A stretch of DNA of 64,000 bases from Candidatus Moraniibacteriota bacterium (GTDB lineage: Bacteria; Patescibacteriota; Minisyncoccia; Moranbacterales; DUUL01), in contig JAXHLG010000002.1 of NCBI GenBank assembly GCA_034522495.1, positions 401,541 to 465,540 of the forward strand, in the 5' to 3' direction. The position numbers and the translations under genes are program-made. Every line of letters begins with the position of its first letter. The first letter of the stretch is position 1. Below the pieces are notes generated by a model. It was not told the DNA's origin. It made no database searches and saw nothing but the letters and a program-made list of their open reading frames with translations. Of this stretch, positions 19,130-63,154 are shown in pieces.

Positions 19130-20797
19130 ATGGCTGGAGATAATCAGGGAGGGGAAAAGAATAAGAAAAATAGAAGAAATCAGTTGAGCTTGACGCCCGG
19201 AGTGGTGGGTTTGTTTGAAACGGCGTACGCGCAGCATAAAGAGAAGCAAAGCAAGAGTGGTGACAACGAGCCGAAAATAAAAGTTTCTACCGCTATCTCC
19301 AAGCTGTCTTTTTACTATGAAAAAATCCGCAACGCGGTGGACTATAAGGATGAGTATCTTCTCAGAAAAACTGCCATTGAAAGAATTTTAAAGAGGCAGA
19401 TTATTATCGAAAGCGTTCTTCAACCGGCCAAGAGCTCCAAGATTGCTCAGCATTTGATGATTGAGCTGATTCGAGGAGAGTATTTGGCAAACAACTCGGT
19501 TCCGGAAAAGAAAATAGATGAGGTTGCCAAGGTTGTTCAAAAGTATATCAAGCTTCACAACAAAGCCATCAGGGGAAGTTTGGCCTCCAAGCGCAACAAA
19601 GAACTGTCCGATTGGATAATAGCCTTGATGGCCAGCGAGATAGAAGAAGAATTGGGAAGAGATAAGGTGGTGGAGAAGGCGATCAGTTTTATGTTTCAGG
19701 TTTTAAGGGACAAGGTTATTTTACCCGATGACGCCGACTATAATCAAAACAAGGATATTCAAATATATGTTAGCATTTATCGAACCTTTCTCAAATTTGA
19801 TACCGATATGGTCAGCTTTATTTTATTTAAATCCGCTGTAGATAGTTGGAAAAACGCGGGCGAGGAGACCATTGAAAAAACAGCAAGAGAGCTGGACTCG
19901 ATCCGAGCCACTATTGAAAATCAAGTTAACAGCCCGATTTCCAATAAGCTAAAGAGAGTTATTTCCAGATACACGGTTTTTTTCGAGATTTTGACGGAGG
20001 TGATCAAAAAAGATCCGGTAAAGGCATATAGCAAGGCCAGCAGAGACCCGGACTCTTTCAGGGAAATGATACGGGAGAGTTGTAGGAAGAAATATGAGAC
20101 TGTCCGAGCTAAAATCTGGAGAGCCAGCTTCAGAAGCATTGTGTATATTTTCATAACCAAAAGCCTGCTGGTGTTTGCGCTTGAAATCCCCGTTATTAAT
20201 CTTTTGGGCGAGTCGGTGAATTATATTTCTTTGGCTGTGAACATCGGTTTTCCTCCGCTTCTTTTGTTTTCCATCATAATGACGACTAAAACGCCTACAA
20301 GCCGCAACACTCAAAAAATCATTGAAGGCATAGAGGGGCTGGTCCATCCCGGCAAGGAGGTTCAAGCGTATCGGCTGAGGACTTCCGCCTTGAGAGGAAA
20401 GACTTTGAACACGGTATTCGGAATTATTTATCTGGGAACTTTTTTGATAACTTTTGGAGGTATTGTTTGGATTTTGAATATGATAGGATTTCACTTTGTC
20501 AGCATCGTAATATTCTTGTTTTTCTTGGCTTTAGTTAGCTTCTTCAGCGCCAGAATCAGAAAAAAAGCTCATGAGCTGATGGTGGTGGAGCCCAAGGAGA
20601 GTATTTTCCGACTTTTCACCGACTTTTTCTACACCCCGGTTCTAGCGGCGGGAAAGTGGCTGAGCGAGAATTTCTCCAAACTGAACGTGTTCGTCATTGT
20701 TCTGGATTTCATCATCGAGGCCCCGTTCAAATTTTTCGTGGAAGCCACAGAGGAATGGTCCAAGTATGTCAAAGAGAGGAGAGAGGAGATAGAGTGA
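19130..20797 (+). CDS. Hypothetical protein with a soluble N-terminal half and a C-terminal multi-TM domain
   Basis: 555-aa ORF with hydrophobic helices from about aa 330 onward. No family recognised. Confidence 0.6.
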   Translation: MAGDNQGGEKNKKNRRNQLSLTPGVVGLFETAYAQHKEKQSKSGDNEPKIKVSTAISKLSFYYEKIRNAVDYKDEYLLRKTAIERILKRQIIIESVLQPAKSSKIAQHLMIELIRGEYLANNSVPEKKIDEVAKVVQKYIKLHNKAIRGSLASKRNKELSDWIIALMASEIEEELGRDKVVEKAISFMFQVLRDKVILPDDADYNQNKDIQIYVSIYRTFLKFDTDMVSFILFKSAVDSWKNAGEETIEKTARELDSIRATIENQVNSPISNKLKRVISRYTVFFEILTEVIKKDPVKAYSKASRDPDSFREMIRESCRKKYETVRAKIWRASFRSIVYIFITKSLLVFALEIPVINLLGESVNYISLAVNIGFPPLLLFSIIMTTKTPTSRNTQKIIEGIEGLVHPGKEVQAYRLRTSALRGKTLNTVFGIIYLGTFLITFGGIVWILNMIGFHFVSIVIFLFFLALVSFFSARIRKKAHELMVVEPKESIFRLFTDFFYTPVLAAGKWLSENFSKLNVFVIVLDFIIEAPFKFFVEATEEWSKYVKERREEIE

Positions 20798-20842: not shown

Positions 20843-22174
20843 ATCACTCGTGTCCGGTTCACAAATCCCACAAACAAGCCTGTTTTCCGCCGCTTCTTTT
20901 AAAATTTTGCAATTCAGGATTACTAAACAGCTCAACCATGGGAGTTTTAGTTAGGACTGACACGTTCAAAATTTGTAATATTTCGTAGAGGTTCTTTTCA
21001 ATCTTCCATTGTTTTTTGAAAATGGCTACTACAAGATAAGCGCAAATGGCAATGCAGATTTGGGTTTTTACCGCGTTCTCTGAGCGGCCCCAGAAGGCTT
21101 TGATCTTGAGATGCTGCTTGATCCACTTGAAAAACAATTCAATTTGCCAGCGGTGCTTGTACAGGGCGGCTATTTTCTCAGCAGAAAGATTAAAATCGTT
21201 GCTCAAGTAAGTGAAATACTTTTTGCTTTCTTGATCAAAGAATTTAATCCTCCTTAATTTCTCCGGATACCTCTTAGAGCTTTTCCAATTGCTAAGCTTG
21301 ATTATCTGATCGCAGCAAATCCCTGTTCCTTTTTCCTTCCTGTTGGAATAAATTCTTTCAAATCCCAGACACTCCTTGGCTCTGATAACAAAGAAGGCTC
21401 CTTTTCGGTGAATTTTGTAAAGCCTGCCGTAATCTATGTAGCCCCGGTCCAGAATGTAATGCGCTTCCGGTTCAATTTCGATCGAATCCAGGAATTCCAG
21501 ATCGTGCCTTTTGGCGCTAGTGATTTCAAACATGGCGGGAATATTGCCGTCAAGGTCCATTTGCAGATTCAGCTTCACCCCGGCTCTTACAGTCTTGAGC
21601 TTGGCCCAGGAGAAAAGAGAAAGGCAGAGTTCGATTACCGATGAATCTATAATGTAGCAAGCCCCGTTCAGTTCCAAATTAAAATTGTCATCGCCTGCAT
21701 ACAGCTTTCTGGCTTTATCAATCAATATTCCCGCCAGGTCCCTGTAAATCCTCCAATCCCTTTTTTCGCTGGCATCGGAAAGAGTTGATCTTGAAATAAT
21801 GCTGGAAAAACCCAAGTTGCGGATTTTTCCCTGCTGGGAGCTCAAGCAGTTGACAACGTCCCGGAGACTTTCCCGATGAGAAATCTGCCCAAAAAAGAGA
21901 GCTAGGAATTGATTCCAGCAAGTAAGTTTTTTTACTGCCGAATTGCCCCGGTATCTATCCACGCATCGGTTGAATTCATAACGTGGGATGTGATCTGCAA
22001 GCTGAGAAAGAACATATTTTCCATGATACATTTGAGTAATTGATAATTGCTTAAAAAACAATATCAATTATCCCATTATTTCCGTTCAAGCCAAAAAAAA
22101 TTCTTGTCCCTTGATTTTGGCTCTGGAAAGCCAAAATCAGGAGATGAGAAAAAAATTAACCGGACACGAGTGAT
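20843..22174 (-). mobile_element. IS4-family insertion sequence, copy 1 (1332 bp)
   Basis: Perfect 17-bp terminal inverted repeats ATCACTCGTGTCCGGTT. Flanking direct repeat attaac (6 bp; 10 bp atattaacat if the ends are taken as CACTCG). Single DDE transposase ORF. Confidence 0.9.
20859..22067 (-). CDS. IS4-family DDE transposase
   Basis: 402 aa. DUF4372-like N-terminus (YHGKYVLSQLADHIPRYEFNRCVDRYRGN), D in YIIDSSVIE, D in YILDRGYIDY, and Y(2)R(3)E(6)K in YKHRWQIELFFKWIK. Confidence 0.85.
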   Translation of the reverse strand: MILFFKQLSITQMYHGKYVLSQLADHIPRYEFNRCVDRYRGNSAVKKLTCWNQFLALFFGQISHRESLRDVVNCLSSQQGKIRNLGFSSIISRSTLSDASEKRDWRIYRDLAGILIDKARKLYAGDDNFNLELNGACYIIDSSVIELCLSLFSWAKLKTVRAGVKLNLQMDLDGNIPAMFEITSAKRHDLEFLDSIEIEPEAHYILDRGYIDYGRLYKIHRKGAFFVIRAKECLGFERIYSNRKEKGTGICCDQIIKLSNWKSSKRYPEKLRRIKFFDQESKKYFTYLSNDFNLSAEKIAALYKHRWQIELFFKWIKQHLKIKAFWGRSENAVKTQICIAICAYLVVAIFKKQWKIEKNLYEILQILNVSVLTKTPMVELFSNPELQNFKRSGGKQACLWDL

Positions 22175-22268
22175 ATTAACATATAAACATTTTAACATAT
22201 TATCATATTATCATTTTATCATATGAACATTTAAGCATTCAAACATACAAGCATCTAAACATTTAATC
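22175..22268. repeat. 8-mer tract, right part
   Basis: attaacatataaacattttaacatattatcatattatcattttatcatatgaacatttaagcattcaaacatacaagcatctaaacatttaatc. Confidence 0.75.
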
Positions 22269-22372: not shown

Positions 22373-23704
22373 ATCACTCGTGTCCGGTTCACAAATCCCA
22401 CAAACAAGCCTGTTTTCCGCCGCTTCTTTTAAAATTTTGCAATTCAGGATTACTAAACAGCTCAACCATGGGAGTTTTAGTTAGGACTGACACGTTCAAA
22501 ATTTGTAATATTTCGTAGAGGTTCTTTTCAATCTTCCATTGTTTTTTGAAAATGGCTACTACAAGATAAGCGCAAATGGCAATGCAGATTTGGGTTTTTA
22601 CCGCGTTCTCTGAGCGGCCCCAGAAGGCTTTGATCTTGAGATGCTGCTTGATCCACTTGAAAAACAATTCAATTTGCCAGCGGTGCTTGTACAGGGCGGC
22701 TATTTTCTCAGCAGAAAGATTAAAATCGTTGCTCAAGTAAGTGAAATACTTTTTGCTTTCTTGATCAAAGAATTTAATCCTCCTTAATTTCTCCGGATAC
22801 CTCTTAGAGCTTTTCCAATTGCTAAGCTTGATTATCTGATCGCAGCAAATCCCTGTTCCTTTTTCCTTCCTGTTGGAATAAATTCTTTCAAATCCCAGAC
22901 ACTCCTTGGCTCTGATAACAAAGAAGGCTCCTTTTCGGTGAATTTTGTAAAGCCTGCCGTAATCTATGTAGCCCCGGTCCAGAATGTAATGCGCTTCCGG
23001 TTCAATTTCGATCGAATCCAGGAATTCCAGATCGTGCCTTTTGGCGCTAGTGATTTCAAACATGGCGGGAATATTGCCGTCAAGGTCCATTTGCAGATTC
23101 AGCTTCACCCCGGCTCTTACAGTCTTGAGCTTGGCCCAGGAGAAAAGAGAAAGGCAGAGTTCGATTACCGATGAATCTATAATGTAGCAAGCCCCGTTCA
23201 GTTCCAAATTAAAATTGTCATCGCCTGCATACAGCTTTCTGGCTTTATCAATCAATATTCCCGCCAGGTCCCTGTAAATCCTCCAATCCCTTTTTTCGCT
23301 GGCATCGGAAAGAGTTGATCTTGAAATAATGCTGGAAAAACCCAAGTTGCGGATTTTTCCCTGCTGGGAGCTCAAGCAGTTGACAACGTCCCGGAGACTT
23401 TCCCGATGAGAAATCTGCCCAAAAAAGAGAGCTAGGAATTGATTCCAGCAAGTAAGTTTTTTTACTGCCGAATTGCCCCGGTATCTATCCACGCATCGGT
23501 TGAATTCATAACGTGGGATGTGATCTGCAAGCTGAGAAAGAACATATTTTCCATGATACATTTGAGTAATTGATAATTGCTTAAAAAACAATATCAATTA
23601 TCCCATTATTTCCGTTCAAGCCAAAAAAAATTCTTGTCCCTTGATTTTGGCTCTGGAAAGCCAAAATCAGGAGATGAGAAAAAAATTAACCGGACACGAG
23701 TGAT
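22373..23704 (-). mobile_element. IS4-family insertion sequence, copy 2 (1332 bp), same orientation as copy 1
   Basis: Same 17-bp TIRs. Flanking direct repeat agatat (or atagatatat). The transposase and all listed spurious ORFs translate identically to copy 1. Confidence 0.9.
22389..23597 (-). CDS. IS4-family DDE transposase (identical to 20859..22067)
   Basis: 402-aa translation identical to copy 1. Confidence 0.85.
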   Translation of the reverse strand: MILFFKQLSITQMYHGKYVLSQLADHIPRYEFNRCVDRYRGNSAVKKLTCWNQFLALFFGQISHRESLRDVVNCLSSQQGKIRNLGFSSIISRSTLSDASEKRDWRIYRDLAGILIDKARKLYAGDDNFNLELNGACYIIDSSVIELCLSLFSWAKLKTVRAGVKLNLQMDLDGNIPAMFEITSAKRHDLEFLDSIEIEPEAHYILDRGYIDYGRLYKIHRKGAFFVIRAKECLGFERIYSNRKEKGTGICCDQIIKLSNWKSSKRYPEKLRRIKFFDQESKKYFTYLSNDFNLSAEKIAALYKHRWQIELFFKWIKQHLKIKAFWGRSENAVKTQICIAICAYLVVAIFKKQWKIEKNLYEILQILNVSVLTKTPMVELFSNPELQNFKRSGGKQACLWDL

Positions 23705-23749
23705 AGATATATTATAAAGAATAAGTATTGAAATTTTTAAAAAACCAAA

Positions 23750-24196
23750 ATGCAAAATAAAAAGACGGTTATATTGATAGTTTTGATTGTTCTACTCCTT
23801 TCAGGAGTGGGAGTTTTCGGGTATTTGATTTATGCGGAAAAAAACAAACAAGCAAAGGAGATTCAGGGAGAAGTCTCAAAGCAGAAAAATCTTCAAGACA
23901 ACCAAAATCAATCGAAGGTTAAAGAATTAAAAAGTTTCGAGGGCATGGTTAAGGCCAGGGAGGAAAACTTTTTGAGGGTGGAATTTAGTTATGAAGGAAA
24001 AACGTGGCAGTCTAAAGTTGATAAAAACGAGGAAACTTTTATCGGGAAAGCTTCAAGAGATGAAAACTCTTTTCCTCAAGAGTTGGCCATGGAAGAAATT
24101 AAAGAAGGAGACTTGGTAATTGTTAGTTCTCAAGAAAACATATTGGCCAAAGAATCGTTTCCGGCTAGCATGATAATGGTGGCGGAAAAAAAATAG
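23750..24196 (+). CDS. Small N-terminally membrane-anchored protein, paralog family member 1
   Basis: MQNKKTVILIVLIVLLLSGVGVFGYLIYAEK. The N-terminus and 5' UTR are homologous to 32331..32723. Confidence 0.65.
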   Translation: MQNKKTVILIVLIVLLLSGVGVFGYLIYAEKNKQAKEIQGEVSKQKNLQDNQNQSKVKELKSFEGMVKAREENFLRVEFSYEGKTWQSKVDKNEETFIGKASRDENSFPQELAMEEIKEGDLVIVSSQENILAKESFPASMIMVAEKK

Positions 24197-24202
24197 AAAT
24201 TT

Positions 24203-26879
24203 CTTTTCGGCGCGCGCGAAAAAAGCAGTTGAAAAAAGCGGGTCAACAGCCCCATAAAACGCCAAGGCCGTTCATATATATCTTAGGGAAAAAGCTATGA
24301 AATATTTAAATAAATCAAGTCCGATATCCTGTATATTATTATTGGCCTTGTTTTCCCTCCTCTTTTCCTTCTCAACGCTAGGCGGCAATAACGCTTCAGC
24401 TGTTGTTATGATACCCTCGGGAGAAGACGGCGCTGAGGATAAAACAATTGCTGATATTAGCATCAGCCAATTAAAAGTGGTTGAACAAAAAGACCATCAA
24501 GTCAAGCTGTCTTTTGCTGTTTACAATCTTTCCAACAGATTTCAGCCGGATGTTGAATATGGCATAAGATTATTCAGGAAAGAGGCGGTTGAGTCGGAGC
24601 ACGGCACGGAAGAAGAGGGAACAAGCTCCAAAGAGTTTCACCCGGGGGATGTCTTGTATGAGAAAATAGATCCCGAGAGCATGGATTTATCTCCAGGAGA
24701 GAAAATTGACAAGAAAGAGGCCTACGAGATGCCTTCCCATCTGGAAGGAGAATTCCTAATCCAGTTATTTGCCAAGACTTCCTCCGGCCTGTTTTTGGGT
24801 ATGGCCGAAACTGAAGTTGTAAAAATGGAAAAAGGAGAAGACGGCATAGAGCTGGACCACAAAGAATGCCGCCTTCTGAAGAATTCCAATACAGAAGAAG
24901 AATACGCTCTGTCCGATCCGATATACATTAATTCTCAAGAGCAATTAGCCATCAAATGCTTATTGAGCAATGATTCCCCGGAAACAAGAACGATAATGCC
25001 CGCCTTTGATATTTATGAAGAAAGCATTTTCGGGGAAAAAATAGAAACGGAATCAAACCCCGGCAAGATTTCAATTGAACCGAAAGAATCCAGAGAGATA
25101 AGCCTGAATGTACCGAAAACTAAATCCCCCGGTTCGTATTATGCTGCTTTGCATTTAAAGCAGGGGGAAGCGGCGGTTTCTAACAGGATATATTTCAACT
25201 ATGCCGTAGAAGGGTTATCCGCCTCCATTTATGACATCAAGGCGAATCAAGAAGAAAATCAAAACATCTCGGTTTCTTTTTACTGGAGCGGAATCAGGGA
25301 GAATTTTGCTCCCGGGACTCAAGAAAGGCCAAGCCCAAAAAATCAAGACCTTCAACTAAGCCTAAGAATCGTTGACCAGCATGGAAAAGACTGCGCTTCT
25401 CCCGTAACAAAATCTTTAAGCGGCGAAAAGAATTACTCGGAATTTTCTACTTCCGTGATCAAAAGCTGCGCTTCTCCTTACGCGGAAGCCAAGATAAAAA
25501 ACCAAAAAGGCGAGGTTCTCGACGAAATTAAAGTTAGAGCCGCCTCCATGGAAAAGAAAGAAAAGAAAGAAGCTGCTCCCGGGGAAAACGCTTCCGAGGA
25601 CAACGCCCTGATTTTAATTGCCTCAGCTCTGATTGTTTTGTTCTTGATTTTTCTTCTGTGGTGGCTTTTGGTTAAGAAAAAGCTGCTCAAAAAGAGCTTT
25701 CTGGCCTTGTTTGTCTTTTTGTCAGCTTTTGTTTTTCTGGCATGGGATATTGGAGAGGTGAACGCGGGAGGTTGGAAATGGCTTGGTTATCGTATGCTAG
25801 GATATACTAGTCAACCTAACCACTGGGAACCTAAGGATTATTACACATATCATTATTATGAAGATGAAAGCTACCCCGCTCAGGCGGATGATGAGATTAC
25901 CGGTCAAATTTATGGGAAACTTTATGGAAAGCACTGTAGCGGCTGGATGAAGGTTAACGGTGTTACGGTGTGGCGCCTACGGTTTCCAACAGACTTTGGC
26001 AGTGGTTCTGGTCCTGGTACTTATATTAGCGGTCAAAGGAGCTGGCCGCATGGATGTGAAGGTACTTACCGGGTTGAATATGAGTGGATGTTTAATTATG
26101 ATAGTAGTGGTGATGGTGTTTGCAACGAAACAGCTGAAGGAGATAACACTCAGAAGTATAAAATTATTTGCGATGAAGCCGAAGATTATCGCTGCCGCTG
26201 GAATAGCGTGTGGAAATACGACGCCTGCGGCTGCCCCGACGAATATATTGAAAGCTGCCCCACCGGATACTGCGATTACGGAGGCGACGTGGATTATTAT
26301 TGTTCCGGAGACAAGCTGATGGGCGTGTATGATTACGTAAGACAAGGCTGCCGGGCGGGAGCTTGCTATACTGGCAATGTATGGCACAACTCCTGCGGAT
26401 CATTTGTAAAAGAGGATTGCTCTGATCTGCCCAACTATTGCGAAGAGTGGGATGATGACTGGACTTGTAAAGACGAAACCACGAAAATGAAAAGCAGGGA
26501 ATGCTATAATTCCGGCTGTTCTTCCGCCTCTTGCTACGGAGATTCATATACTGAAACTAAAGAAGAGGAATGCTTGAAAGACGGAGTTCAGGGCAGATGC
26601 ATCAACGGCGCTTGTTTCTATCAAGGAGCCTGCGGCAGCGCAAATGACTCGGATCCGACGTGCGAGGCGCCGAAAGACAATTTATGTTTAATTAATTTTT
26701 ATGACGACCCAGTGGTCCGGTACGACAGCGCTGACGGCGATAAGTCAAAAGACAAATACTACTGGACCTGCGAAGGAGCCGATCAAGACAGCGATCAGGA
26801 TGATGCTAATTGCAGCGTGGAAAGAGATTGCCAAGTAACGTCAGAGGGCTGGCGCGAGGCGTCGTTTTGATTGTTCTGC
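24203..26879 (+). repeat. Tandem repeat unit 1 (2677 bp)
   Basis: Starts at cttttcggcgcgcgcgaaaaaagc. The same junction recurs at 26880 and 29560. Confidence 0.95.
24297..26870 (+). CDS. Surface protein, copy 1 (857 aa): signal peptide, about 430-aa N-terminal domain, TM hairpin, Cys-rich C-terminal domain
   Basis: SP LLLALFSLLFSFSTLGGNNASA. TM1 ALILIASALIVLFLIFLLWWLLV, loop KKKLLKKS, TM2 FLALFVFLSAFVFLAW. 28 Cys after TM2 (my count). Terminal CGSAN...LC...YWTC...CSV module. Confidence 0.8.
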   Translation: MKYLNKSSPISCILLLALFSLLFSFSTLGGNNASAVVMIPSGEDGAEDKTIADISISQLKVVEQKDHQVKLSFAVYNLSNRFQPDVEYGIRLFRKEAVESEHGTEEEGTSSKEFHPGDVLYEKIDPESMDLSPGEKIDKKEAYEMPSHLEGEFLIQLFAKTSSGLFLGMAETEVVKMEKGEDGIELDHKECRLLKNSNTEEEYALSDPIYINSQEQLAIKCLLSNDSPETRTIMPAFDIYEESIFGEKIETESNPGKISIEPKESREISLNVPKTKSPGSYYAALHLKQGEAAVSNRIYFNYAVEGLSASIYDIKANQEENQNISVSFYWSGIRENFAPGTQERPSPKNQDLQLSLRIVDQHGKDCASPVTKSLSGEKNYSEFSTSVIKSCASPYAEAKIKNQKGEVLDEIKVRAASMEKKEKKEAAPGENASEDNALILIASALIVLFLIFLLWWLLVKKKLLKKSFLALFVFLSAFVFLAWDIGEVNAGGWKWLGYRMLGYTSQPNHWEPKDYYTYHYYEDESYPAQADDEITGQIYGKLYGKHCSGWMKVNGVTVWRLRFPTDFGSGSGPGTYISGQRSWPHGCEGTYRVEYEWMFNYDSSGDGVCNETAEGDNTQKYKIICDEAEDYRCRWNSVWKYDACGCPDEYIESCPTGYCDYGGDVDYYCSGDKLMGVYDYVRQGCRAGACYTGNVWHNSCGSFVKEDCSDLPNYCEEWDDDWTCKDETTKMKSRECYNSGCSSASCYGDSYTETKEEECLKDGVQGRCINGACFYQGACGSANDSDPTCEAPKDNLCLINFYDDPVVRYDSADGDKSKDKYYWTCEGADQDSDQDDANCSVERDCQVTSEGWREASF

Positions 26880-29559
26880 CTTTTCGGCGCGCGCGAAAAA
26901 AGCAGTTGAAAAAAGCGGGTCAACAGCCCCATAAAACGCCAAGGCCGTTCATATATATCTTAGGGAAAAAGCTATGAAATATTTAAATAAATCAAGTCCG
27001 ATATCCTGTATATTATTATTGGCCTTGTTTTCCCTCCTCTTTTCCTTCTCAACGCTAGGCGGCAATAACGCTTCAGCTGTTGTTATGATACCCTCGGGAG
27101 AAGACGGCGCTGAGGATAAAACAATTGCTGATATTAGCATCAGCCAATTAAAAGTGGTTGAACAAAAAGACCATCAAGTCAAGCTGTCTTTTGCTGTTTA
27201 CAATCTTTCCAACAGATTTCAGCCGGATGTTGAATATGGCATAAGATTATTCAGGAAAGAGGCGGTTGAGTCGGAGCACGGCACGGAAGAAGAGGGAACA
27301 AGCTCCAAAGAGTTTCACCCGGGGGATGTCTTGTATGAGAAAATAGATCCCGAGAGCATGGATTTATCTCCAGGAGAGAAAATTGACAAGAAAGAGGCCT
27401 ACGAGATGCCTTCCCATCTGGAAGGAGAATTCCTAATCCAGTTATTTGCCAAGACTTCCTCCGGCCTGTTTTTGGGTATGGCCGAAACTGAAGTTGTAAA
27501 AATGGAAAAAGGAGAAGACGGCATAGAGCTGGACCACAAAGAATGCCGCCTTCTGAAGAATTCCAATACAGAAGAAGAATACGCTCTGTCCGATCCGATA
27601 TACATTAATTCTCAAGAGCAATTAGCCATCAAATGCTTATTGAGCAATGATTCCCCGGAAACAAGAACGATAATGCCCGCCTTTGATATTTATGAAGAAA
27701 GCATTTTCGGGGAAAAAATAGAAACGGAATCAAACCCCGGCAAGATTTCAATTGAACCGAAAGAATCCAGAGAGATAAGCCTGAATGTACCGAAAACTAA
27801 ATCCCCCGGTTCGTATTATGCTGCTTTGCATTTAAAGCAGGGGGAAGCGGCGGTTTCTAACAGGATATATTTCAACTATGCCGTAGAAGGGTTATCCGCC
27901 TCCATTTATGACATCAAGGCGAATCAAGAAGAAAATCAAAACATCTCGGTTTCTTTTTACTGGAGCGGAATCAGGGAGAATTTTGCTCCCGGGACTCAAG
28001 AAAGGCCAAGCCCAAAAAATCAAGACCTTCAACTAAGCCTAAGAATCGTTGACCAGCATGGAAAAGACTGCGCTTCTCCCGTAACAAAATCTTTAAGCGG
28101 CGAAAAGAATTACTCGGAATTTTCTACTTCCGTGATCAAAAGCTGCGCTTCTCCTTACGCGGAAGCCAAGATAAAAAACCAAAAAGGCGAGGTTCTCGAC
28201 GAAATTAAAGTTAGAGCCGCCTCCATGGAAAAGAAAGAAAAGAAAGAAGCTGCTCCCGGGGAAAACGCTTCCGAGGACAACGCCCTGATTTTAATTGCCT
28301 CAGCTCTGATTGTTTTGTTCTTGATTTTTCTTCTGTGGTGGCTTTTGGTTAAGAAAAAGCTGCTCAAAAAGAGCTTTCTGGCCTTATTTGTCTTTTTGTC
28401 AGCTTTTGTTTTTCTGGCATGGGATATTGGAGAGGTGAACGCGGGAGGTTGGAAATGGCTTGGTTATCAAATGCTAGGATATAGTTATCAGGATGGACAT
28501 ACTTATGTATATCATTATTATAATGATGAAAACTACTCCTGGTCGGTGGATAATTGGCAGGCGGATGATGAGATCACCGGTCGAATTTTTGGGAGACTTT
28601 ATGGAAAGCACTGCAATGGCTGGATGAAGGTTAACGGTGTTACGGTGTGGCGCCTACGGTTTCCAACAGACTTTGGTAGTAGTTCTGGTCCTGGTACTTC
28701 TGTTAGCGGTCAAAGGAGCTGGCCGCATGGATGCGCCGAAGGTACCTATCGGGTTAAATATGAGTGGATGTTTAATTATGATAGTAGTGGTGATGGTGTT
28801 TGCAACGAAACAGCTGAAGGAGATCTCACTCAGAAGTATAAAATTATTTGCGATGAAGCCGAAGATTATCGCTGCCGCCGGAATAGCGTGTGGAAATACG
28901 ACGCCTGCGACTGTCCCGACGAATATATTGAAAGCTGCCCCACCGGATACTGCGATTACGGAGGCGACGTGGATTATTATTGTTCCGGAGACAAGCTGAT
29001 GGGCGTGTATGATTACGTAAGACAAGGCTGCCGGGCGGGAGCTTGCTATACTGGCAATGTATGGCACAACTCCTGCGGATCATTTGTAAAAGAGGATTGC
29101 TCTGATCTGCCCAACTATTGCGAAGAGTGGGATGATGACTGGACTTGTAAAGACGAAACCACGAAAATGAAAAGCAGGGAATGCTATAATTCCGGCTGTT
29201 CTTCCGCCTCTTGCTACGGAGATTCATATACTGAAACTAAAGAAGAGGAATGCTTGAAAGACGGAGTTCAGGGCAGATGCATCAACGGCGCTTGTTTCTA
29301 TCAAGGAGCCTGCGGCAGCGCAAATGAATCGGAGTCGACATGCGAGGCGCCGAAAGACAATTTATGTTTAATTAATTTTTATGACGACCCAGTGGTCCGG
29401 TACGACAGCGCTGACGGCGATAAGTCAAAAGACAAATACTACTGGACCTGCGAAGGAGCCGATCAAGACAGCGATCAGGATGATGCTAATTGCAGCGTGG
29501 AAAGAGATTGCCAAGTAACGTCAGAGGGCTGGCGCGAGGCGTCGTTTTGATTGTTCTGC
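26880..29559 (+). repeat. Tandem repeat unit 2 (2680 bp)
   Basis: ORF start offset 26974-24297 = 2677. Identical upstream 94 nt. Confidence 0.95.
26974..29550 (+). CDS. Surface protein, copy 2 (858 aa)
   Basis: First 498 aa identical to copy 1. Different variable cassette. Private substitutions CRRNS, ACDCP, ANESESTCE. Confidence 0.8.
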   Translation: MKYLNKSSPISCILLLALFSLLFSFSTLGGNNASAVVMIPSGEDGAEDKTIADISISQLKVVEQKDHQVKLSFAVYNLSNRFQPDVEYGIRLFRKEAVESEHGTEEEGTSSKEFHPGDVLYEKIDPESMDLSPGEKIDKKEAYEMPSHLEGEFLIQLFAKTSSGLFLGMAETEVVKMEKGEDGIELDHKECRLLKNSNTEEEYALSDPIYINSQEQLAIKCLLSNDSPETRTIMPAFDIYEESIFGEKIETESNPGKISIEPKESREISLNVPKTKSPGSYYAALHLKQGEAAVSNRIYFNYAVEGLSASIYDIKANQEENQNISVSFYWSGIRENFAPGTQERPSPKNQDLQLSLRIVDQHGKDCASPVTKSLSGEKNYSEFSTSVIKSCASPYAEAKIKNQKGEVLDEIKVRAASMEKKEKKEAAPGENASEDNALILIASALIVLFLIFLLWWLLVKKKLLKKSFLALFVFLSAFVFLAWDIGEVNAGGWKWLGYQMLGYSYQDGHTYVYHYYNDENYSWSVDNWQADDEITGRIFGRLYGKHCNGWMKVNGVTVWRLRFPTDFGSSSGPGTSVSGQRSWPHGCAEGTYRVKYEWMFNYDSSGDGVCNETAEGDLTQKYKIICDEAEDYRCRRNSVWKYDACDCPDEYIESCPTGYCDYGGDVDYYCSGDKLMGVYDYVRQGCRAGACYTGNVWHNSCGSFVKEDCSDLPNYCEEWDDDWTCKDETTKMKSRECYNSGCSSASCYGDSYTETKEEECLKDGVQGRCINGACFYQGACGSANESESTCEAPKDNLCLINFYDDPVVRYDSADGDKSKDKYYWTCEGADQDSDQDDANCSVERDCQVTSEGWREASF

Positions 29560-32235
29560 CTTTTCGGCGCGCGCGAAAAAAGCAGTTGAAAAAAGCGGGT
29601 CAACAGCCCCATAAAACGCCAAGGCCGTTCATATATATCTTAGGGAAAAAGCTATGAAATATTTAAATAAATCAAGTCCGATATCCTGTATATTATTATT
29701 GGCCTTGTTTTCCCTCCTCTTTTCCTTCTCAACGCTAGGCGGCAATAACGCTTCAGCTGTTGTTATGATACCCTCGGGAGAAGACGGCGCTGAGGATAAA
29801 ACAATTGCTGATATTAGCATCAGCCAATTAAAAGTGGTTGAACAAAAAGACCATCAAGTCAAGCTGTCTTTTGCTGTTTACAATCTTTCCAACAGATTTC
29901 AGCCGGATGTTGAATATGGCATAAGATTATTCAGGAAAGAGGCGGTTGAGTCGGAGCACGGCACGGAAGAAGAGGGAACAAGCTCCAAAGAGTTTCACCC
30001 GGGGGATGTCTTGTATGAGAAAATAGATCCCGAGAGCATGGATTTATCTCCAGGAGAGAAAATTGACAAGAAAGAGGCCTACGAGATGCCTTCCCATCTG
30101 GAAGGAGAATTCCTAATCCAGTTATTTGCCAAGACTTCCTCCGGCCTGTTTTTGGGTATGGCCGAAACTGAAGTTGTAAAAATGGAAAAAGGAGAAGACG
30201 GCATAGAGCTGGACCACAAAGAATGCCGCCTTCTGAAGAATTCCAATACAGAAGAAGAATACGCTCTGTCCGATCCGATATACATTAATTCTCAAGAGCA
30301 ATTAGCCATCAAATGCTTATTGAGCAATGATTCCCCGGAAACAAGAACGATAATGCCCGCCTTTGATATTTATGAAGAAAGCATTTTCGGGGAAAAAATA
30401 GAAACGGAATCAAACCCCGGCAAGATTTCAATTGAACCGAAAGAATCCAGAGAGATAAGCCTGAATGTACCGAAAACTAAATCCCCCGGTTCGTATTATG
30501 CTGCTTTGCATTTAAAGCAGGGGGAAGCGGCGGTTTCTAACAGGATATATTTCAACTATGCCGTAGAAGGGTTATCCGCCTCCATTTATGACATCAAGGC
30601 GAATCAAGAAGAAAATCAAAACATCTCGGTTTCTTTTTACTGGAGCGGAATCAGGGAGAATTTTGCTCCCGGGACTCAAGAAAGGCCAAGCCCAAAAAAT
30701 CAAGACCTTCAACTAAGCCTAAGAATCGTTGACCAGCATGGAAAAGACTGCGCTTCTCCCGTAACAAAATCTTTAAGCGGCGAAAAGAATTACTCGGAAT
30801 TTTCTACTTCCGTGATCAAAAGCTGCGCTTCTCCTTACGCGGAAGCCAAGATAAAAAACCAAAAAGGCGAGGTTCTCGACGAAATTAAAGTTAGAGCCGC
30901 CTCCATGGAAAAGAAAGAAAAGAAAGAAGCTGCTCCCGGGGAAAACGCTTCCGAGGACAACGCCCTGATTTTAATTGCCTCAGCTCTGATTGTTTTGTTC
31001 TTGATTTTTCTTCTGTGGTGGCTTTTGGTTAAGAAAAAGCTGCTCAAAAAGAGCTTTCTGGCCTTATTTGTCTTTTTGTCAGCTTTTGTTTTTCTGGCAT
31101 GGGATATTGGAGAGGTGAACGCGGGAGGTTGGAAATGGCTTGGTTATCAAATGCTAGGATATAGTTATCAGGATGGACATACTTATGTATATCATTATTA
31201 TAATGATGAAAACTACTCCTGGTCGGTGGATAATTGGCAGGCGGATGATGAGATCACCGGTCGAATTTTTGGGAGACTTTATGGAAAGCACTGCAATGGC
31301 TGGATGAAGGTTAACGGTGTTACGGTGTGGCGCCTACGGTTTCCAACAGACTTTGGTAGTAGTTCTGGTCCTGGTACTTCTGTTAGCGGTCAAAGGAGCT
31401 GGCCGCATGGATGCGCCGAAGGTACCTATCGGGTTAAATATGAGTGGATGTTTAATTATGATAGTAGTGGTGATGGTGTTTGCAACGAAACAGCTGAAGG
31501 AGATCTCACTCAGAAGTATAAAATTATTTGCGATGAAGCCGAAGATTATCGCTGCCGCTGGAATAGCGTGTGGAAATACGACGCCTGCGGCTGCCCCGAC
31601 GAATATATTGAAAGCTGCCCCACCGGATACTGCGATTACGGAGGCGACGTGGATTATTATTGTTCCGGAGACAAGCTGATGGGCGTGTATGATTACGTAA
31701 GACAAGGCTGCCGGGCGGGAGCTTGCTATACTGGCAATGTATGGCACAACTCCTGCGGATCATTTGTAAAAGAGGATTGCTCTGATCTGCCCAACTATTG
31801 CGAAGAGTGGGATGATGACTGGACTTGTAAAGACGAAACCACGAAAATGAAAAGCAGGGAATGCTATAATTCCGGCTGTTCTTCCGCCTCTTGCTACGGA
31901 GATTCATATACTGAAACTAAAGAAGAGGAATGCTTGAAAGACGGAGTTCAGGGCAGATGCATCAACGGCGCTTGTTTCTATCAAGGAGCCTGCGGCAGCG
32001 CAAATGACTCGGATCCGACGTGCGAGGCGCCGAAAGACAATTTATGTTTAATTAATTTTTATGACGACCCAGTGGTCCGGTACGACAGCGCTGACGGCGA
32101 TAAGTCAAAAGACAAATACTACTGGACCTGCGAAGGAGCCGATCAAGACAGCGATCAGGATGATGCTAATTGCAGCGTGGAAAGAGATTGCCAAGTAACG
32201 TCAGAGGGCTGGCGCGAGGCGTCGTTTTGATTGTT
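29560..32235 (+). repeat. Tandem repeat unit 3 (ends just after the stop codon)
   Basis: ORF start offset 29654-26974 = 2680. Homology ends at tgattgtt|aataaagg. Confidence 0.95.
29654..32230 (+). CDS. Surface protein, copy 3 (858 aa), chimeric between copy 2 (5' part) and copy 1 (3' part)
   Basis: The variable cassette equals copy 2. Downstream sites (CRWNS, ACGCP, ANDSDPTCE) equal copy 1. Confidence 0.8.
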   Translation: MKYLNKSSPISCILLLALFSLLFSFSTLGGNNASAVVMIPSGEDGAEDKTIADISISQLKVVEQKDHQVKLSFAVYNLSNRFQPDVEYGIRLFRKEAVESEHGTEEEGTSSKEFHPGDVLYEKIDPESMDLSPGEKIDKKEAYEMPSHLEGEFLIQLFAKTSSGLFLGMAETEVVKMEKGEDGIELDHKECRLLKNSNTEEEYALSDPIYINSQEQLAIKCLLSNDSPETRTIMPAFDIYEESIFGEKIETESNPGKISIEPKESREISLNVPKTKSPGSYYAALHLKQGEAAVSNRIYFNYAVEGLSASIYDIKANQEENQNISVSFYWSGIRENFAPGTQERPSPKNQDLQLSLRIVDQHGKDCASPVTKSLSGEKNYSEFSTSVIKSCASPYAEAKIKNQKGEVLDEIKVRAASMEKKEKKEAAPGENASEDNALILIASALIVLFLIFLLWWLLVKKKLLKKSFLALFVFLSAFVFLAWDIGEVNAGGWKWLGYQMLGYSYQDGHTYVYHYYNDENYSWSVDNWQADDEITGRIFGRLYGKHCNGWMKVNGVTVWRLRFPTDFGSSSGPGTSVSGQRSWPHGCAEGTYRVKYEWMFNYDSSGDGVCNETAEGDLTQKYKIICDEAEDYRCRWNSVWKYDACGCPDEYIESCPTGYCDYGGDVDYYCSGDKLMGVYDYVRQGCRAGACYTGNVWHNSCGSFVKEDCSDLPNYCEEWDDDWTCKDETTKMKSRECYNSGCSSASCYGDSYTETKEEECLKDGVQGRCINGACFYQGACGSANDSDPTCEAPKDNLCLINFYDDPVVRYDSADGDKSKDKYYWTCEGADQDSDQDDANCSVERDCQVTSEGWREASF

Positions 32236-62212: not shown

Positions 62213-63154
62213 ATGAGCAAGAAAAAGATTGTTCAAGTGTTGGTATTAGTGTTGCTGGGAGCTTCTATGCCCGGATATATTTTTTGGAAAAACATTTTTC
62301 CGGATTTTGAATATTATTTAAATGAAGATACTTATTTCGGAGTGAAGATTTTCAAGAAAGAGGCGGGCGAAAAAGATTTTTTAGTCCTGCCCGAGCTGGA
62401 AAATTATTTTTTTGATAAAGTGAAAATAACCGGAAGGATAGATCCGCCGGCGGAAAAGGATTTCCAAGTAAAAGCGTTCAAGGGCTACCAAGCCTTTTAC
62501 TACCAAGAAGGGGAAGCAATCAAAACAAAAGAAGAACTTGAAGAAATTATCAACAACAATCCGGTGGATGTTCCCAATGGCGCGCTTTTTGCCTACAATG
62601 ACTCAGTCAATGTTGTTTCCGGGGAATATTTTTACCCGGTGTTCTCCGAGGAGCTGTTTGGCAAGCTGGGGTATAGTTGGGAGGAGGTGGCAGAAAAGGG
62701 TGGCGATTTTACGGGAAAATTAACTGAAGGAGATAGATTGCACTATGGCGGCCCGCATCCGGATGGAACAATTCTTAAATCTTTTTCCGGCGATTATTAT
62801 CTGATTTCCCGGGAAGCAAAAAGAAGACTGTCTTTCCCCGGCGCAGAAGAATTTATTCAAAAACAAAATTATACTGTCATAGAGACCTCGGAAGAAAATA
62901 GCAAAGAATTTGGCAAGTGCTCTTCGGGCGCAGGCGCCTCGAGCATCAACTGTCAATTTAATAAAAAAGCCTCTATAGAAGGAATGGATTATGTTTTCCA
63001 ATTAGAAAATCTGGATATAAAGAAAGTAACGGATGCGCAGGTTGAATTGTCCGCCACTCCATCCTTGAAGGGAGCCAAGCGAAATATAAGAGTCTTTTAT
63101 TGGAATTTAAGAGATAATTTAGCGCAAAGATATAAGGGTCATCTATTCAATTAA
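62213..63154 (+). CDS. Hypothetical N-terminally anchored/secreted protein
   Basis: 313-aa ORF with the signal-anchor IVQVLVLVLLGASMPGYIFW. No family recognised. Confidence 0.55.
   Translation: MSKKKIVQVLVLVLLGASMPGYIFWKNIFPDFEYYLNEDTYFGVKIFKKEAGEKDFLVLPELENYFFDKVKITGRIDPPAEKDFQVKAFKGYQAFYYQEGEAIKTKEELEEIINNNPVDVPNGALFAYNDSVNVVSGEYFYPVFSEELFGKLGYSWEEVAEKGGDFTGKLTEGDRLHYGGPHPDGTILKSFSGDYYLISREAKRRLSFPGAEEFIQKQNYTVIETSEENSKEFGKCSSGAGASSINCQFNKKASIEGMDYVFQLENLDIKKVTDAQVELSATPSLKGAKRNIRVFYWNLRDNLAQRYKGHLFN

What the first reader, a model, noticed from the sequence alone, without database searches (positions are those of the whole stretch)
24297..26870. Unrecognised protein architecture: signal peptide, large ectodomain, TM hairpin, then a 28-cysteine ectodomain
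A cleavable-looking signal peptide (...STLGGNNASA) precedes a beta-rich domain of about 430 aa. Two hydrophobic helices follow, separated by the basic loop KKKLLKKS. By the positive-inside rule, both large domains should be outside the cell. The C-terminal 370 aa or so contains 28 Cys by my count. A G-C-x3-4-(A/S)-C-(Y/F) motif recurs three times (QGCRAGACYTG, SGCSSASCYGD, GRCINGACFYQG). The terminal module ACGSAN...TCEAP.DNLC......YYWTCEG......NCSV resembles, from memory, a small disulfide module reiterated in uncultivated-bacteria surface proteins. An even Cys number suggests a fully disulfide-bonded adhesin- or toxin-like head. A mid-protein membrane hairpin tethering two ectodomains is uncommon.
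Basis: inference. Interest (0 to 1): 0.65.

Follow-up and report, generated by a model that had tools for sequence, protein, structure and literature searches.

The report
Anchor-plus-cargo surface protein precursor
This gene, present as three tandem copies in a tiny uncultivated (CPR) bacterium, belongs to a large undescribed family in which a membrane-anchored stalk and a variable, here cysteine-rich, surface module are made as one chain, joined by what looks like a second, internal export signal that is probably cut to separate them.

Summary
ORF 24297-26870 (857 aa) has an N-terminal signal peptide, a ~380-aa beta-rich domain, two hydrophobic helices flanking KKKLLKKS, and a C-terminal region with exactly 28 Cys and three C-x4-[AS]-C-[YF] motifs. 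The source is a Candidatus Moranbacteria genome.

It is not a one-off. Exhaustive HMMER finds 1,032 clusters sharing residues ~1-485, with highly variable C-terminal parts. No Pfam, NCBIfam or PDB sequence match exists for either half.

The second helix behaves as an internal signal peptide:
- A-x-A follows it in 63% of members (11-12% in controls).
- The -1 Ala is at least 90% conserved.
- Split-gene versions exist in which this helix is the N-terminal signal peptide of a separate downstream gene, colinear with a fused relative.
- The Cys-rich module also occurs as stand-alone secreted proteins.

About half of the family ends in a conserved W-[KR]-E-V-x-P tag (window: WREASF).

Best reading: a polyprotein-like precursor, with a three-domain Ig-like stalk anchored by helix 1 and the cargo released by signal peptidase I. 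Cleavage, disulfides and function are inferred. This is a new variant of a known kind; interest is moderately high.

The parts
23750..24196 (+). Small single-pass membrane protein (148 aa), a recurrent neighbour of the family and of stand-alone Cys-rich cargo genes; likely partner of unknown role
   Evidence: A paralog lies directly upstream of the stand-alone Cys-rich protein P0005 in the same genome (52% identity over 91 aa, E 2e-29). phmmer also finds homologs next to family or cargo genes in L003 and L010. jackhmmer adds L009, L018, L023, L025, L033 and L035.
24297..26870 (+). Copy 1 of the precursor gene (857 aa), the finding itself
   Evidence: The NCBI relative is P0001, 'hypothetical protein U5L10_01920, Candidatus Moranbacteria'.
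24297..24401 (+). N-terminal signal peptide (residues 1-35), predicted cut ASA|VV
   Evidence: Read from the sequence. No signal-peptide predictor was available.
24402..25541 (+). Conserved N-module: three tandem Ig/FN3-like beta-sandwich domains (about residues 50-178, 184-305, 310-415) with four conserved Cys (191, 221, 366, 391)
   Evidence: AF2 model with pLDDT 82. Foldseek returns only generic FN3, macroglobulin-domain and RbmA arrays at TM 0.14-0.23. Conserved in 1,032 clusters. Invariant C191, C221 and C391.
25605..25673 (+). Helix 1 (residues 437-459): stop-transfer membrane anchor of the N-module
   Evidence: Hydropathy. In 15 of 147 members the protein ends 4-22 residues after this helix.
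25674..25697 (+). Cytoplasmic basic loop KKKLLKKS (460-467), which also serves as the n-region of the internal signal peptide
   Evidence: Family loop median 6 aa, mean net charge +3.7. Gene fission in L036 and L037 falls exactly here.
25698..25766 (+). Helix 2 plus c-region (468-490: FLALFVFLSAFVFLAW-DIGEVNA): internal signal peptide, predicted signal peptidase I cut after A490
   Evidence: A-x-A follows helix 2 in 83 of 132 members, against 11% of random windows and 12% after helix 1. The -1 Ala is at least 90% conserved in 54 members. Spacing and helix-breaker match true signal peptides. Homologous to the N-terminal signal peptide of separate cargo genes.
25767..26246 (+). Cargo, N-terminal subdomain (about 491-650): the only part that differs between the tandem copies
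   Evidence: pS 0.13 and pN 0.085 between copy 1 and copies 2/3, against pS <=0.003 over codons 1-490. Copy 3 is a mosaic.
26214..26621 (+). Cargo, Cys-rich repeat region (about 640-775) containing the three C-x4-[AS]-C-[YF] motifs
   Evidence: All Cys are invariant in P0003 and P0005. The same repeats occur in stand-alone secreted Patescibacteria proteins P0152-P0158. The AF2 model is unreliable (pLDDT 39.7).
26622..26867 (+). Cargo, terminal 'G-x-CG...LC...W-x-C-x-G...C' module (776-851) plus the extreme C-terminal tag WREASF (852-857; DNA 26850-26867)
   Evidence: HMM match of 24.1 bits against at most 7.7 bits in 500 shuffles. A W-x-E tail occurs in 63 of 132 members against 0.7% background.
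26974..29550 (+). Copy 2 (858 aa)
29654..32230 (+). Copy 3 (858 aa). It resembles copy 2 at the 5' end of the cargo and copy 1 at the 3' end, and is identical to database protein P0001
32763..34889 (+). Downstream fibre-like protein with a C-terminal Peptidase_S74 intramolecular-chaperone domain; possibly associated, membership uncertain
   Evidence: Pfam PF13884, E 5e-16. An S74-domain gene also lies immediately upstream of the stand-alone Cys-rich gene P0152 in L003.

Best explanation
The gene encodes a polyprotein-like surface-protein precursor of a large, uncharacterised family that appears restricted to Patescibacteria (CPR).

Proposed steps:
1. The N-terminal signal peptide sends the chain through Sec.
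2. Three Ig/FN3-like beta-sandwich domains are exported.
3. Helix 1 stops transfer and anchors this 'stalk' in the membrane.
4. The short basic loop stays in the cytoplasm.
5. Helix 2 re-initiates export as an internal signal peptide.
6. Signal peptidase I cuts after V-N-A490 and frees the C-terminal cargo on the outside.

In this genome the cargo is a 367-aa, 28-Cys module that is presumably disulfide-bonded. In other family members the cargo is built from adhesin-type modules such as TSP1, PKD or InlB B-repeats. The cargo ends in a family-wide C-terminal tag (W-[KR]-E-V-x-P; here WREASF). This tag probably keeps the cargo at the cell surface, possibly by docking to the conserved stalk. The three tandem copies share an identical anchor module and differ only at the start of the cargo, which gives the cell variants of one surface ligand, most plausibly for attachment to a host cell or substrate.

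Shown here: the architecture, its conservation, the signal-peptide-like features of helix 2, the fused/split gene equivalence, the stand-alone secreted versions of the cargo, and the tag.

Inferred: the cleavage itself, disulfide bonding, retention through the tag, and an adhesive function.
For: 1. Family size and shape. There are 1,032 clusters at E<=1e-3 and 822 at <=1e-10. The conserved part is query residues ~1-485, and total lengths run from 405 to 3,817 aa.
2. Hairpin frequency. 132 of 147 analysable members have helix 1, a basic loop and helix 2.
3. Cleavage motif. A-x-A follows helix 2 in 63% of members. The figure is 11% for random windows, 12% after helix 1, and 49% at the same proteins' N-terminal signal peptides. 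The -1 Ala is at least 90% conserved in a 54-sequence alignment (A462) and invariant in A6.
4. Signal-peptide geometry. The distance from the last loop charge to the site has a median of 23 residues, against 20 for the N-terminal signal peptides. A Gly/Pro/Ser helix-breaker lies at -8..-4 in 71 of 83.
5. Split genes. In L036 and L037 the N-module gene stops just after helix 1. A separate gene, 25 nt downstream in L036 and overlapping by ATGA in L037, starts with a signal peptide ending SKA|ETF or ANA|KTF. The L037 pair is colinear with fused L007, and the cargo's signal peptide aligns onto helix 2.
6. Stand-alone N-modules. 15 of 147 members end 4-22 residues after helix 1.
7. Tandem N-modules. 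In P0004 and P0006 a second N-module follows helix 2 just as the first follows the N-terminal signal peptide.
8. Stand-alone cargo. The Cys-rich module occurs as small secreted proteins with ordinary N-terminal signal peptides (P0152, P0154, P0156, P0158). One (P0005) is in the same genome, next to a paralog of the window's small membrane protein.
9. Cargo content. Where Pfam recognises the cargo it finds TSP_1, PKD, Flg_new_2, DUF4215 and Big_7.
10. C-terminal tag. A W-x-E tail occurs in 63 of 132 members against 0.7% background.
11. Copy divergence. The anchor module is identical in the three copies and divergence is confined to the cargo.
12. Disulfide capacity. An MdbA-like disulfide oxidoreductase family is enriched in CPR (PMC6744442).
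Against: - No cleavage has been observed, and no dedicated signal-peptide or topology predictor could be run.
- The window's site (V-N-A|G-G) is an acceptable but not the commonest form (A-x-A|D-T-F).
- Helix 2 is long enough to span the membrane (uncharged run median 19 residues), so it could stay uncleaved.
- 37% of members lack a strict A-x-A.
- The C-domain could not be modelled (pLDDT 39.7), so neither its fold nor its disulfide pattern is known.
- Nothing tested here shows that the tag binds the stalk.
- The window's tag (WREASF) departs from the consensus.
- No disulfide-forming enzyme or signal peptidase gene lies in the window.
Confidence: 0.65

Rival explanations
1. One reading: helix 2 is a permanent transmembrane helix. 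The mature protein is one chain with a membrane hairpin that tethers two ectodomains side by side on the cell surface.
For: Helix 2 is hydrophobic and about 16-19 residues long, enough to span a membrane. The fused form is the commonest (132 of 147). Signal-peptide-like segments are not always cleaved. The topology, with both domains outside, is the same as in the best explanation.
Against: This model does not explain why the -1 Ala and the -3 small residue after helix 2 are conserved as strongly as the structural cysteines. It also does not explain why the same segment serves as the N-terminal signal peptide of a separate gene in L036 and L037, or why the cargo occurs as free secreted proteins.
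Confidence: 0.2
2. A polymorphic toxin or effector system: the conserved N-terminal part is a delivery or presentation module, and the variable C-terminal part is a toxin aimed at host or competitor cells.
For: A constant N-terminal part combined with a variable C-terminal part is the hallmark of polymorphic toxins, and tandem arrays are common in such systems. Small disulfide-rich secreted proteins can be toxins.
Against: There is no ORF for an immunity protein between the copies; the spacers are 103 nt and identical. The recognisable cargo domains in the family are adhesin or Ig-type, and none is an enzyme or toxin. No toxin family hit appears in Pfam or NCBIfam. Whole genes are repeated rather than orphan C-terminal cassettes.
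Confidence: 0.1
3. An artefact: two adjacent genes (anchor and secreted protein) were fused by a sequencing or assembly error that removed a stop codon, or the three copies are an assembly duplication.
For: Split two-gene versions do exist in other genomes. The source is a metagenome-assembled genome.
Against: The fused reading frame is intact in all three copies, which differ from one another at 60-plus positions, so they are not one collapsed or duplicated read set. 132 independent fused members come from many lineages and assemblies.
Confidence: 0.02

Closest known systems
Viral envelope glycoprotein polyproteins with internal signal peptides (for example the bunyavirus M-segment Gn-Gc precursor or alphavirus E2-6K-E1), from my own knowledge
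   Same: The order of elements is the same: signal peptide, ectodomain 1, transmembrane anchor, short cytoplasmic segment, second hydrophobic segment acting as the signal peptide for ectodomain 2, with the cut made by the cell's signal peptidase. The two products often stay associated on the surface.
   Different: Those are viral proteins processed in the eukaryotic ER, with a second anchor after ectodomain 2. Here the gene is chromosomal and bacterial, the second product has no membrane anchor, and there is no sequence or fold relationship. The comparison concerns mechanism only, not membership.
Bradyrhizobium japonicum FbcH cytochrome b/c1 precursor, a bacterial polyprotein split at an internal signal peptide (from my own knowledge; the literature search did not retrieve the primary papers)
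   Same: It is a bacterial membrane protein followed in the same chain by an internal signal sequence, whose cleavage releases a second, exported protein.
   Different: It is a respiratory complex rather than a surface protein. It is a single case rather than a family with interchangeable cargo, and it is unrelated in sequence.
Modular Gram-positive and CPR surface adhesins built from Ig-like, PKD, TSP1 or InlB B-repeat modules
   Same: They have tandem beta-sandwich stalks and variable distal modules, are exported through Sec, and occur as tandem paralog arrays.
   Different: Known adhesins are anchored by a C-terminal LPXTG/sortase signal, a lipobox, or one terminal helix. This family has no conserved motif before helix 1. 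The anchor sits in the middle of the chain and is followed by a signal peptide. The N-module matches no Pfam or NCBIfam model.
Porphyromonas gingivalis gingipain (RgpA/Kgp) polyproteins, from my own knowledge
   Same: One precursor is processed into several pieces, which remain together on the cell surface as an adhesin complex.
   Different: Processing there is carried out by the proteases themselves after type IX secretion, not by signal peptidase at an internal signal peptide. The proteins are unrelated in sequence.

Membership tests
Sec-type (signal peptidase I) signal peptide, applied to helix 2 | A positively charged n-region directly before the hydrophobic core | tested here: met
   The window has KKKLLKKS. 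The family loop has a median length of 6 aa and a mean net charge of +3.7.
Sec-type (signal peptidase I) signal peptide, applied to helix 2 | A hydrophobic h-region followed by a helix-breaking, more polar c-region of about 5-7 residues | tested here: met
   The window has FLALFVFLSAFVFLAW followed by DIGEVNA. G, P or S lies at -8..-4 in 71 of 83 members. The n-to-site distance has a median of 23, against 20 for the proteins' own N-terminal signal peptides.
Sec-type (signal peptidase I) signal peptide, applied to helix 2 | Small uncharged residues at -3 and -1 (the A-x-A rule) | tested here: met
   The window has V-N-A|G. A-x-A occurs in 83 of 132 members, against 11-12% in controls. The -1 Ala is at least 90% conserved and invariant in A6.
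Sec-type (signal peptidase I) signal peptide, applied to helix 2 | The segment can function as an N-terminal signal peptide | tested here: met
   In L036 and L037 the homologous segment is the N-terminus of a separate gene. The alignment of L037 cargo residues 12-264 to L007 423-616 begins inside helix 2. This is comparative evidence, not experimental.
Sec-type (signal peptidase I) signal peptide, applied to helix 2 | Actual cleavage by signal peptidase I | not testable with these tools
   This needs protein chemistry or proteomics. No SignalP or DeepTMHMM was available.
Sortase (LPXTG) or exosortase/archaeosortase-type C-terminal sorting signals, applied to helix 1 plus the basic tail | A conserved signature motif (LPXTG, PEP, PGF and similar) immediately before the helix | tested here: not met
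   There is no conserved column between the last beta-sandwich domain and helix 1 in A1, A3 or A6. The sequences before helix 1 vary freely.
Polymorphic toxin systems | A variable C-terminal toxin domain paired with a downstream immunity gene | tested here: not met
   The 103-nt identical spacers between copies hold no ORF. The cargo domains recognised in the family are adhesin or Ig-type.
Known Pfam/NCBIfam domain families, for either half of the window protein | A profile-HMM match at or near the curated threshold | tested here: not met
   No Pfam hit at E<=1 for the whole protein or either half. No NCBIfam hit at E<=0.1. PDB sequence profiles give only noise, at E 0.39 and 0.13.
The uncharacterised CPR 'stalk-hairpin-cargo' family defined in this report | Signal peptide, three-beta-sandwich N-module with conserved Cys pairs, helix 1, basic loop, helix 2 with a small-x-small site | tested here: met
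   phmmer E-values down to 1e-47 over query residues ~10-490. Invariant C191, C221 and C391. Hairpin features as listed above.
The uncharacterised CPR 'stalk-hairpin-cargo' family defined in this report | An aromatic-x-E tag at the extreme C-terminus (consensus W-[KR]-E-V-x-P) | tested here: met
   The window ends in GWREASF, which contains W-R-E. It is a variant, with A-S-F instead of V-x-P. The terminal module and tag match the family HMM at 24.1 bits.

The most novel reading that the evidence does not exclude
The family may be a self-contained 'anchor-and-cargo' surface display system peculiar to CPR bacteria. One precursor would be cut at an internal signal peptide. The freed, highly variable cargo would then be recaptured on the cell surface by its conserved C-terminal W-[KR]-E-V-x-P tag docking onto the conserved three-domain stalk, or onto the small co-located membrane protein. 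That would give these minimal episymbionts a plug-in way to swap host-binding heads on a constant membrane base. Tandem arrays like the one in this window would supply antigenic or host-range variants.
Probability: 0.25. Interest if true: 0.8.

Novelty: new variant of a known kind. Interest (0 to 1): 0.62.

Why it matters
CPR/Patescibacteria make up a large share of bacterial diversity and mostly live attached to other cells, yet almost nothing is known about the proteins that mediate attachment.

This locus points to a family of more than 1,000 sequence clusters with no annotation, no Pfam model and no solved structure. Its architecture of constant anchor, internal export signal, interchangeable cargo and conserved end tag suggests a lineage-specific way of building and varying the cell surface.

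Internal signal peptides that split a precursor are textbook for enveloped viruses but rare in bacteria. A whole bacterial family built on the principle would be a useful addition to what is known about protein export.

The hypothesis is directly testable: a predicted cleavage site, a predicted tag, and genetically tractable Saccharibacteria that appear to carry family members (loci L019, L027, L029-L034).

Tried and rejected
- **Profile search for the N-module.** The word-indexed search with alignment A1 returned only the query's own cluster, so names, sources and Pfam pre-annotations for the wider family were not obtained.
- **Locus retrieval with A1.** The search for related loci failed because A1 has no sufficiently conserved stretch. 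It worked with the tighter alignment A6, which biases the 34 loci towards one subgroup.
- **C-domain structure.** AlphaFold2 with 11 sequences gave pLDDT 39.7. I did not run a fold search on it because the matches would be meaningless. The C-domain fold and disulfide map remain unknown.
- **Broad tail HMM.** An HMM of the last 85 residues of 62 members had no discriminating power. Only the narrower 10-member module HMM worked.
- **N-module fold search.** Foldseek against PDB gave only generic tandem beta-sandwich matches (TM 0.14-0.23), with no functional lead.
- **Literature.** Searches for bacterial internal-signal-peptide polyproteins and for CPR cysteine-rich surface proteins found nothing relevant.
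- **Rejected ideas.** A diversity-generating retroelement was rejected: the copy differences include indels and all base types and form a recombination mosaic, and no reverse transcriptase lies in the window. A sortase-type sorting signal at helix 1 was rejected because there is no conserved motif. Giardia-VSP-like CxxC proteins were rejected because the motif here is C-x4-C. A lipoprotein signal was rejected because there is no lipobox Cys.
- **Disulfide system.** No Dsb, VKOR, MdbA, sortase or LepB gene is in the 64-kb window. The rest of the genome could not be inspected.
Full report
**1. What is in the sequence**

ORF 24297..26870 (+) is open and encodes 857 aa. Features read directly from the translation:
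- Residues 1-35 form a signal-peptide-like start (…STLGGNNASA|VV).
- Residues 437-459 are a strongly hydrophobic helix.
- Residues 460-467 are KKKLLKKS.
- Residues 468-483 are a second hydrophobic stretch, followed by DIGEVNA|GG.
- The remaining 367 residues hold 28 of the protein's 33 cysteines.

The neighbourhood is ordinary chromosome: ftsEX, mraW, a PBP, a Mur ligase, ribosomal proteins, rpoA and recA. The best database match names the source as a Candidatus Moranbacteria MAG with a 1.31-Mb contig.

**2. Neither half is a known family**

Pfam gives no hit at E<=1 for the whole protein or for either half. NCBIfam gives none at E<=0.1. Profile searches of PDB sequences return only noise.

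AlphaFold2 with 24 family sequences models residues ~50-415 as three consecutive beta-sandwich domains, followed by two helices (pLDDT 82, pTM 0.71). Foldseek against PDB finds only generic FN3, macroglobulin-domain and RbmA tandem arrays at TM-scores of 0.14-0.23. The N-module is thus an Ig-like stalk with no specific relative.

The C-domain could not be modelled (pLDDT 39.7 with 11 sequences).

**3. It belongs to a large family with a constant front and a variable back**

An exhaustive phmmer search of 1.84 billion representatives finds 1,032 clusters at E<=1e-3 and 822 at <=1e-10. In almost all of the listed hits the match covers query residues ~10-490, while total lengths range from 405 to 3,817 aa.

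Of the 147 listed members that could be analysed, 132 have the same layout: signal peptide, ~390-aa domain, helix 1, short basic loop (median 6 aa, mean net charge +3.7), helix 2. Four cysteines of the N-module are conserved; C191, C221 and C391 are invariant. That fits two disulfides and an extracytoplasmic location.

Where Pfam recognises anything in the variable parts, it is adhesin-type: TSP_1, PKD, InlB B-repeats, DUF4215, Big_7.

A scan of one genome per GTDB species returned 34 loci. Nearly all are from Patescibacteria lineages (Campbell-, Parcu-, Pacei-, Morani-, Sacchari-, Nomura- and Kaiserbacteria). Two are labelled Alphaproteobacteria or Micavibrio MAGs, which I could not verify.

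**4. Helix 2 is an internal signal peptide**

Four independent lines support this.

(a) Sequence features:
- A-x-A follows helix 2 in 83 of 132 members (63%). The figure is 11% for random windows of the same proteins, 12% after helix 1, and 49% at the same proteins' own N-terminal signal peptides.
- The -1 Ala is at least 90% conserved in a 54-sequence alignment and invariant in an 8-sequence subset. It is as conserved as the structural cysteines.
- The distance from the last loop charge to the site has a median of 23 residues, against 20 at the N-terminal signal peptides.
- A Gly/Pro/Ser helix-breaker precedes the site in 71 of 83.
- The window's V-N-A|G-G fits the -3/-1 rule.

(b) Gene fission:
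- In L036 the N-module gene stops after helix 1 and a basic tail. A separate gene starts 25 nt downstream with MKKINISKIILVLIPVLFIFSGVSKA|ETF.
- In L037 the two genes overlap by ATGA, and the second starts MKFLIRISLGGLVVALFFAVKVPAANA|KTF.
- The L037 pair is colinear with the fused protein of L007. The N-module gene aligns to L007 residues 89-436. The cargo gene's residues 12-264 align to 423-616, so its signal peptide lies on helix 2. The break falls in the cytoplasmic loop.
- Fifteen of 147 representatives likewise end 4-22 residues after helix 1.

(c) Repeated N-modules. In P0004 and P0006 a second N-module follows a helix 2 just as the first follows the N-terminal signal peptide.

(d) Stand-alone cargo:
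- The window's own cargo type exists as stand-alone secreted proteins with ordinary N-terminal signal peptides in other Patescibacteria (P0152, P0154, P0156, P0158).
- It also exists elsewhere in the same genome as P0005 (U5L10_01335), whose true start is probably an upstream TTG that gives a normal signal peptide.

The most economical reading is a polyprotein-like precursor. Helix 1 is the stop-transfer anchor of the stalk, and helix 2 re-initiates export and is removed from the cargo by signal peptidase I. Cleavage itself is inferred, not shown.

**5. The cargo in this window**

It has three parts.
- **Residues 491-~650** are unique to this lineage. This is the only region that differs among the three copies: pS 0.13 and pN 0.085 between copy 1 and copies 2/3, against pS <=0.003 over the first 490 codons. 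Copy 3 is a recombinant of the other two. The anchor module is therefore being homogenised while an older divergent patch at the start of the cargo persists. pN/pS of about 0.6 is raised but does not prove positive selection.
- **Residues ~640-775** hold the Cys-rich repeats (…YCD-x-GGDV-x-x-YCSG…GC-x-x-G-x-CY…). Every Cys here is invariant in P0003 and P0005 at about 40-47% identity.
- **Residues 776-854** match an HMM of the 'G-x-CG…LC…W-x-C-x-G…C' module that ends many family members. The score is 24.1 bits, against at most 7.7 bits in 500 shuffles.

**6. A conserved C-terminal tag (not part of the original finding)**

Of 132 members, 63 end in W-x-E within the last 14 residues, against 0.7% for background windows. 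The typical ending is …NW[KR]EV[AST]P-COOH. Others end in related aromatic-x-E tails such as YKEVSP, FREVRP, MIETRP, PGYIEN and SFEEF.

The window protein ends GWREASF and P0005 ends RWMETSP. A stand-alone signal-peptide-plus-cargo gene ending CAWKEVAP sits beside an N-module gene in L008.

A short tag kept at the extreme end of otherwise unrelated cargos implies a common recognition partner. The conserved stalk is the obvious candidate, but I could not test this. It is speculation.

**7. Conserved neighbours**

The 148-aa single-pass membrane protein just upstream (23750..24196) has a paralog directly upstream of P0005 in the same genome (52% identity, E 2e-29). It also has homologs beside family or cargo genes in other loci. 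phmmer finds L003 and L010. jackhmmer finds six more, with the caveat that iteration ran on a small database.

A Peptidase_S74-chaperone fibre protein follows the array here and precedes the stand-alone cargo gene in L003.

**8. Disulfide capacity**

No Dsb, VKOR or MdbA gene is in the window, and the rest of the genome could not be read. Méheust et al. 2019 report an MdbA-like thiol-disulfide oxidoreductase family enriched in CPR (PMC6744442). Extracytoplasmic disulfide formation is therefore plausible.

**9. Comparison with what is known**

In mechanism, the closest analogues are viral glycoprotein polyproteins with internal signal peptides, and among bacteria the FbcH cytochrome b/c1 precursor. 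Both comparisons rest on my own knowledge. They show how the protein may work, not what it belongs to.

As a surface protein it resembles modular Ig-like adhesins. It lacks their anchoring signals, since there is no conserved motif before helix 1.

The polymorphic-toxin reading fails on the absence of immunity genes and of toxin domains.

An assembly artefact is excluded by three non-identical intact copies and 132 independent fused members.

**10. Verdict**

The protein is a member of a large, unannotated, CPR-restricted family whose organising principle has not, as far as my searches show, been described. That principle is a constant anchor, an internal signal peptide, an interchangeable cargo and a C-terminal tag.

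I rate it a new variant of a known kind (Sec-exported modular surface proteins or polyprotein precursors) and of moderately high interest. Key steps remain inferred: cleavage, retention through the tag, and function.

Noticed in passing
window 20843-22175 and 22373-23705 (- strand ORFs 20859-22067 and 22389-23597): Two 100% identical 1,333-bp copies of an IS4-type insertion sequence (DDE_Tnp_1 plus DUF4372 transposase, 402 aa; terminal inverted repeats TCACTCGTG…ACGAGTGA). They sit 197 bp apart, immediately upstream of the small membrane protein and the tandem array. They may have contributed to the local duplications.
   Followed up: partly
Family-wide (P0007-P0151); window 26850-26867: About half of the family members end in a conserved extreme C-terminal tag, W-[KR]-E-V-x-P (63 of 132 against 0.7% background). 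Others end in related aromatic-x-E tails. No known sorting signal that I am aware of has this form, and its recognition partner is unknown.
   Followed up: partly
window 23750-24196; L002 455-925; L003 56-487; L010 9954-10385: A small single-pass membrane protein with a conserved ~90-aa C-terminal domain recurs next to family genes and next to stand-alone Cys-rich cargo genes, including a second locus in the same genome. It has no Pfam or NCBIfam family above threshold.
   Followed up: partly
window 32763-34889; L003 516-1112: A 708-aa protein with internal duplication and a C-terminal Peptidase_S74 intramolecular-chaperone domain plus coiled coil (like a phage tail fibre or endosialidase) follows the array. 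An S74-domain gene also directly precedes the stand-alone Cys-rich gene P0152 in an unrelated metagenome contig.
   Followed up: no
window 26871-26973, 29551-29653 and 24197-24296: Each copy is preceded by the same ~100-nt spacer, which contains a GC-rich palindrome (TTTTCGGCGCGCGCGAAAAAA). This could be a terminator or attenuator between copies, or a regulatory hairpin.
   Followed up: no
P0004 (1,887 aa) and P0006 (869 aa): Some family members carry two complete N-modules in series (signal peptide, stalk, hairpin, stalk, hairpin or anchor). If each helix 2 is cleaved, these would be precursors of three products.
   Followed up: partly
L021 and L024: Two family loci come from MAGs labelled 'uncultured Alphaproteobacteria' and 'Micavibrio sp.'. 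This is either mis-binning of CPR contigs or rare occurrence outside Patescibacteria. Micavibrio is itself an epibiotic predator.
   Followed up: no
window 19130-20797, 51538-53535, 62213-63154: Three sizeable ORFs (555, 665 and 313 aa) have no Pfam hit at E<=0.01. The 665-aa ORF follows an FtsA/PilM-like gene.
   Followed up: no
window 1-64000: Nearly all genes are on the + strand, and GC skew is positive throughout (cumulative skew rises monotonically). This is consistent with one replichore of a small CPR genome.
   Followed up: no
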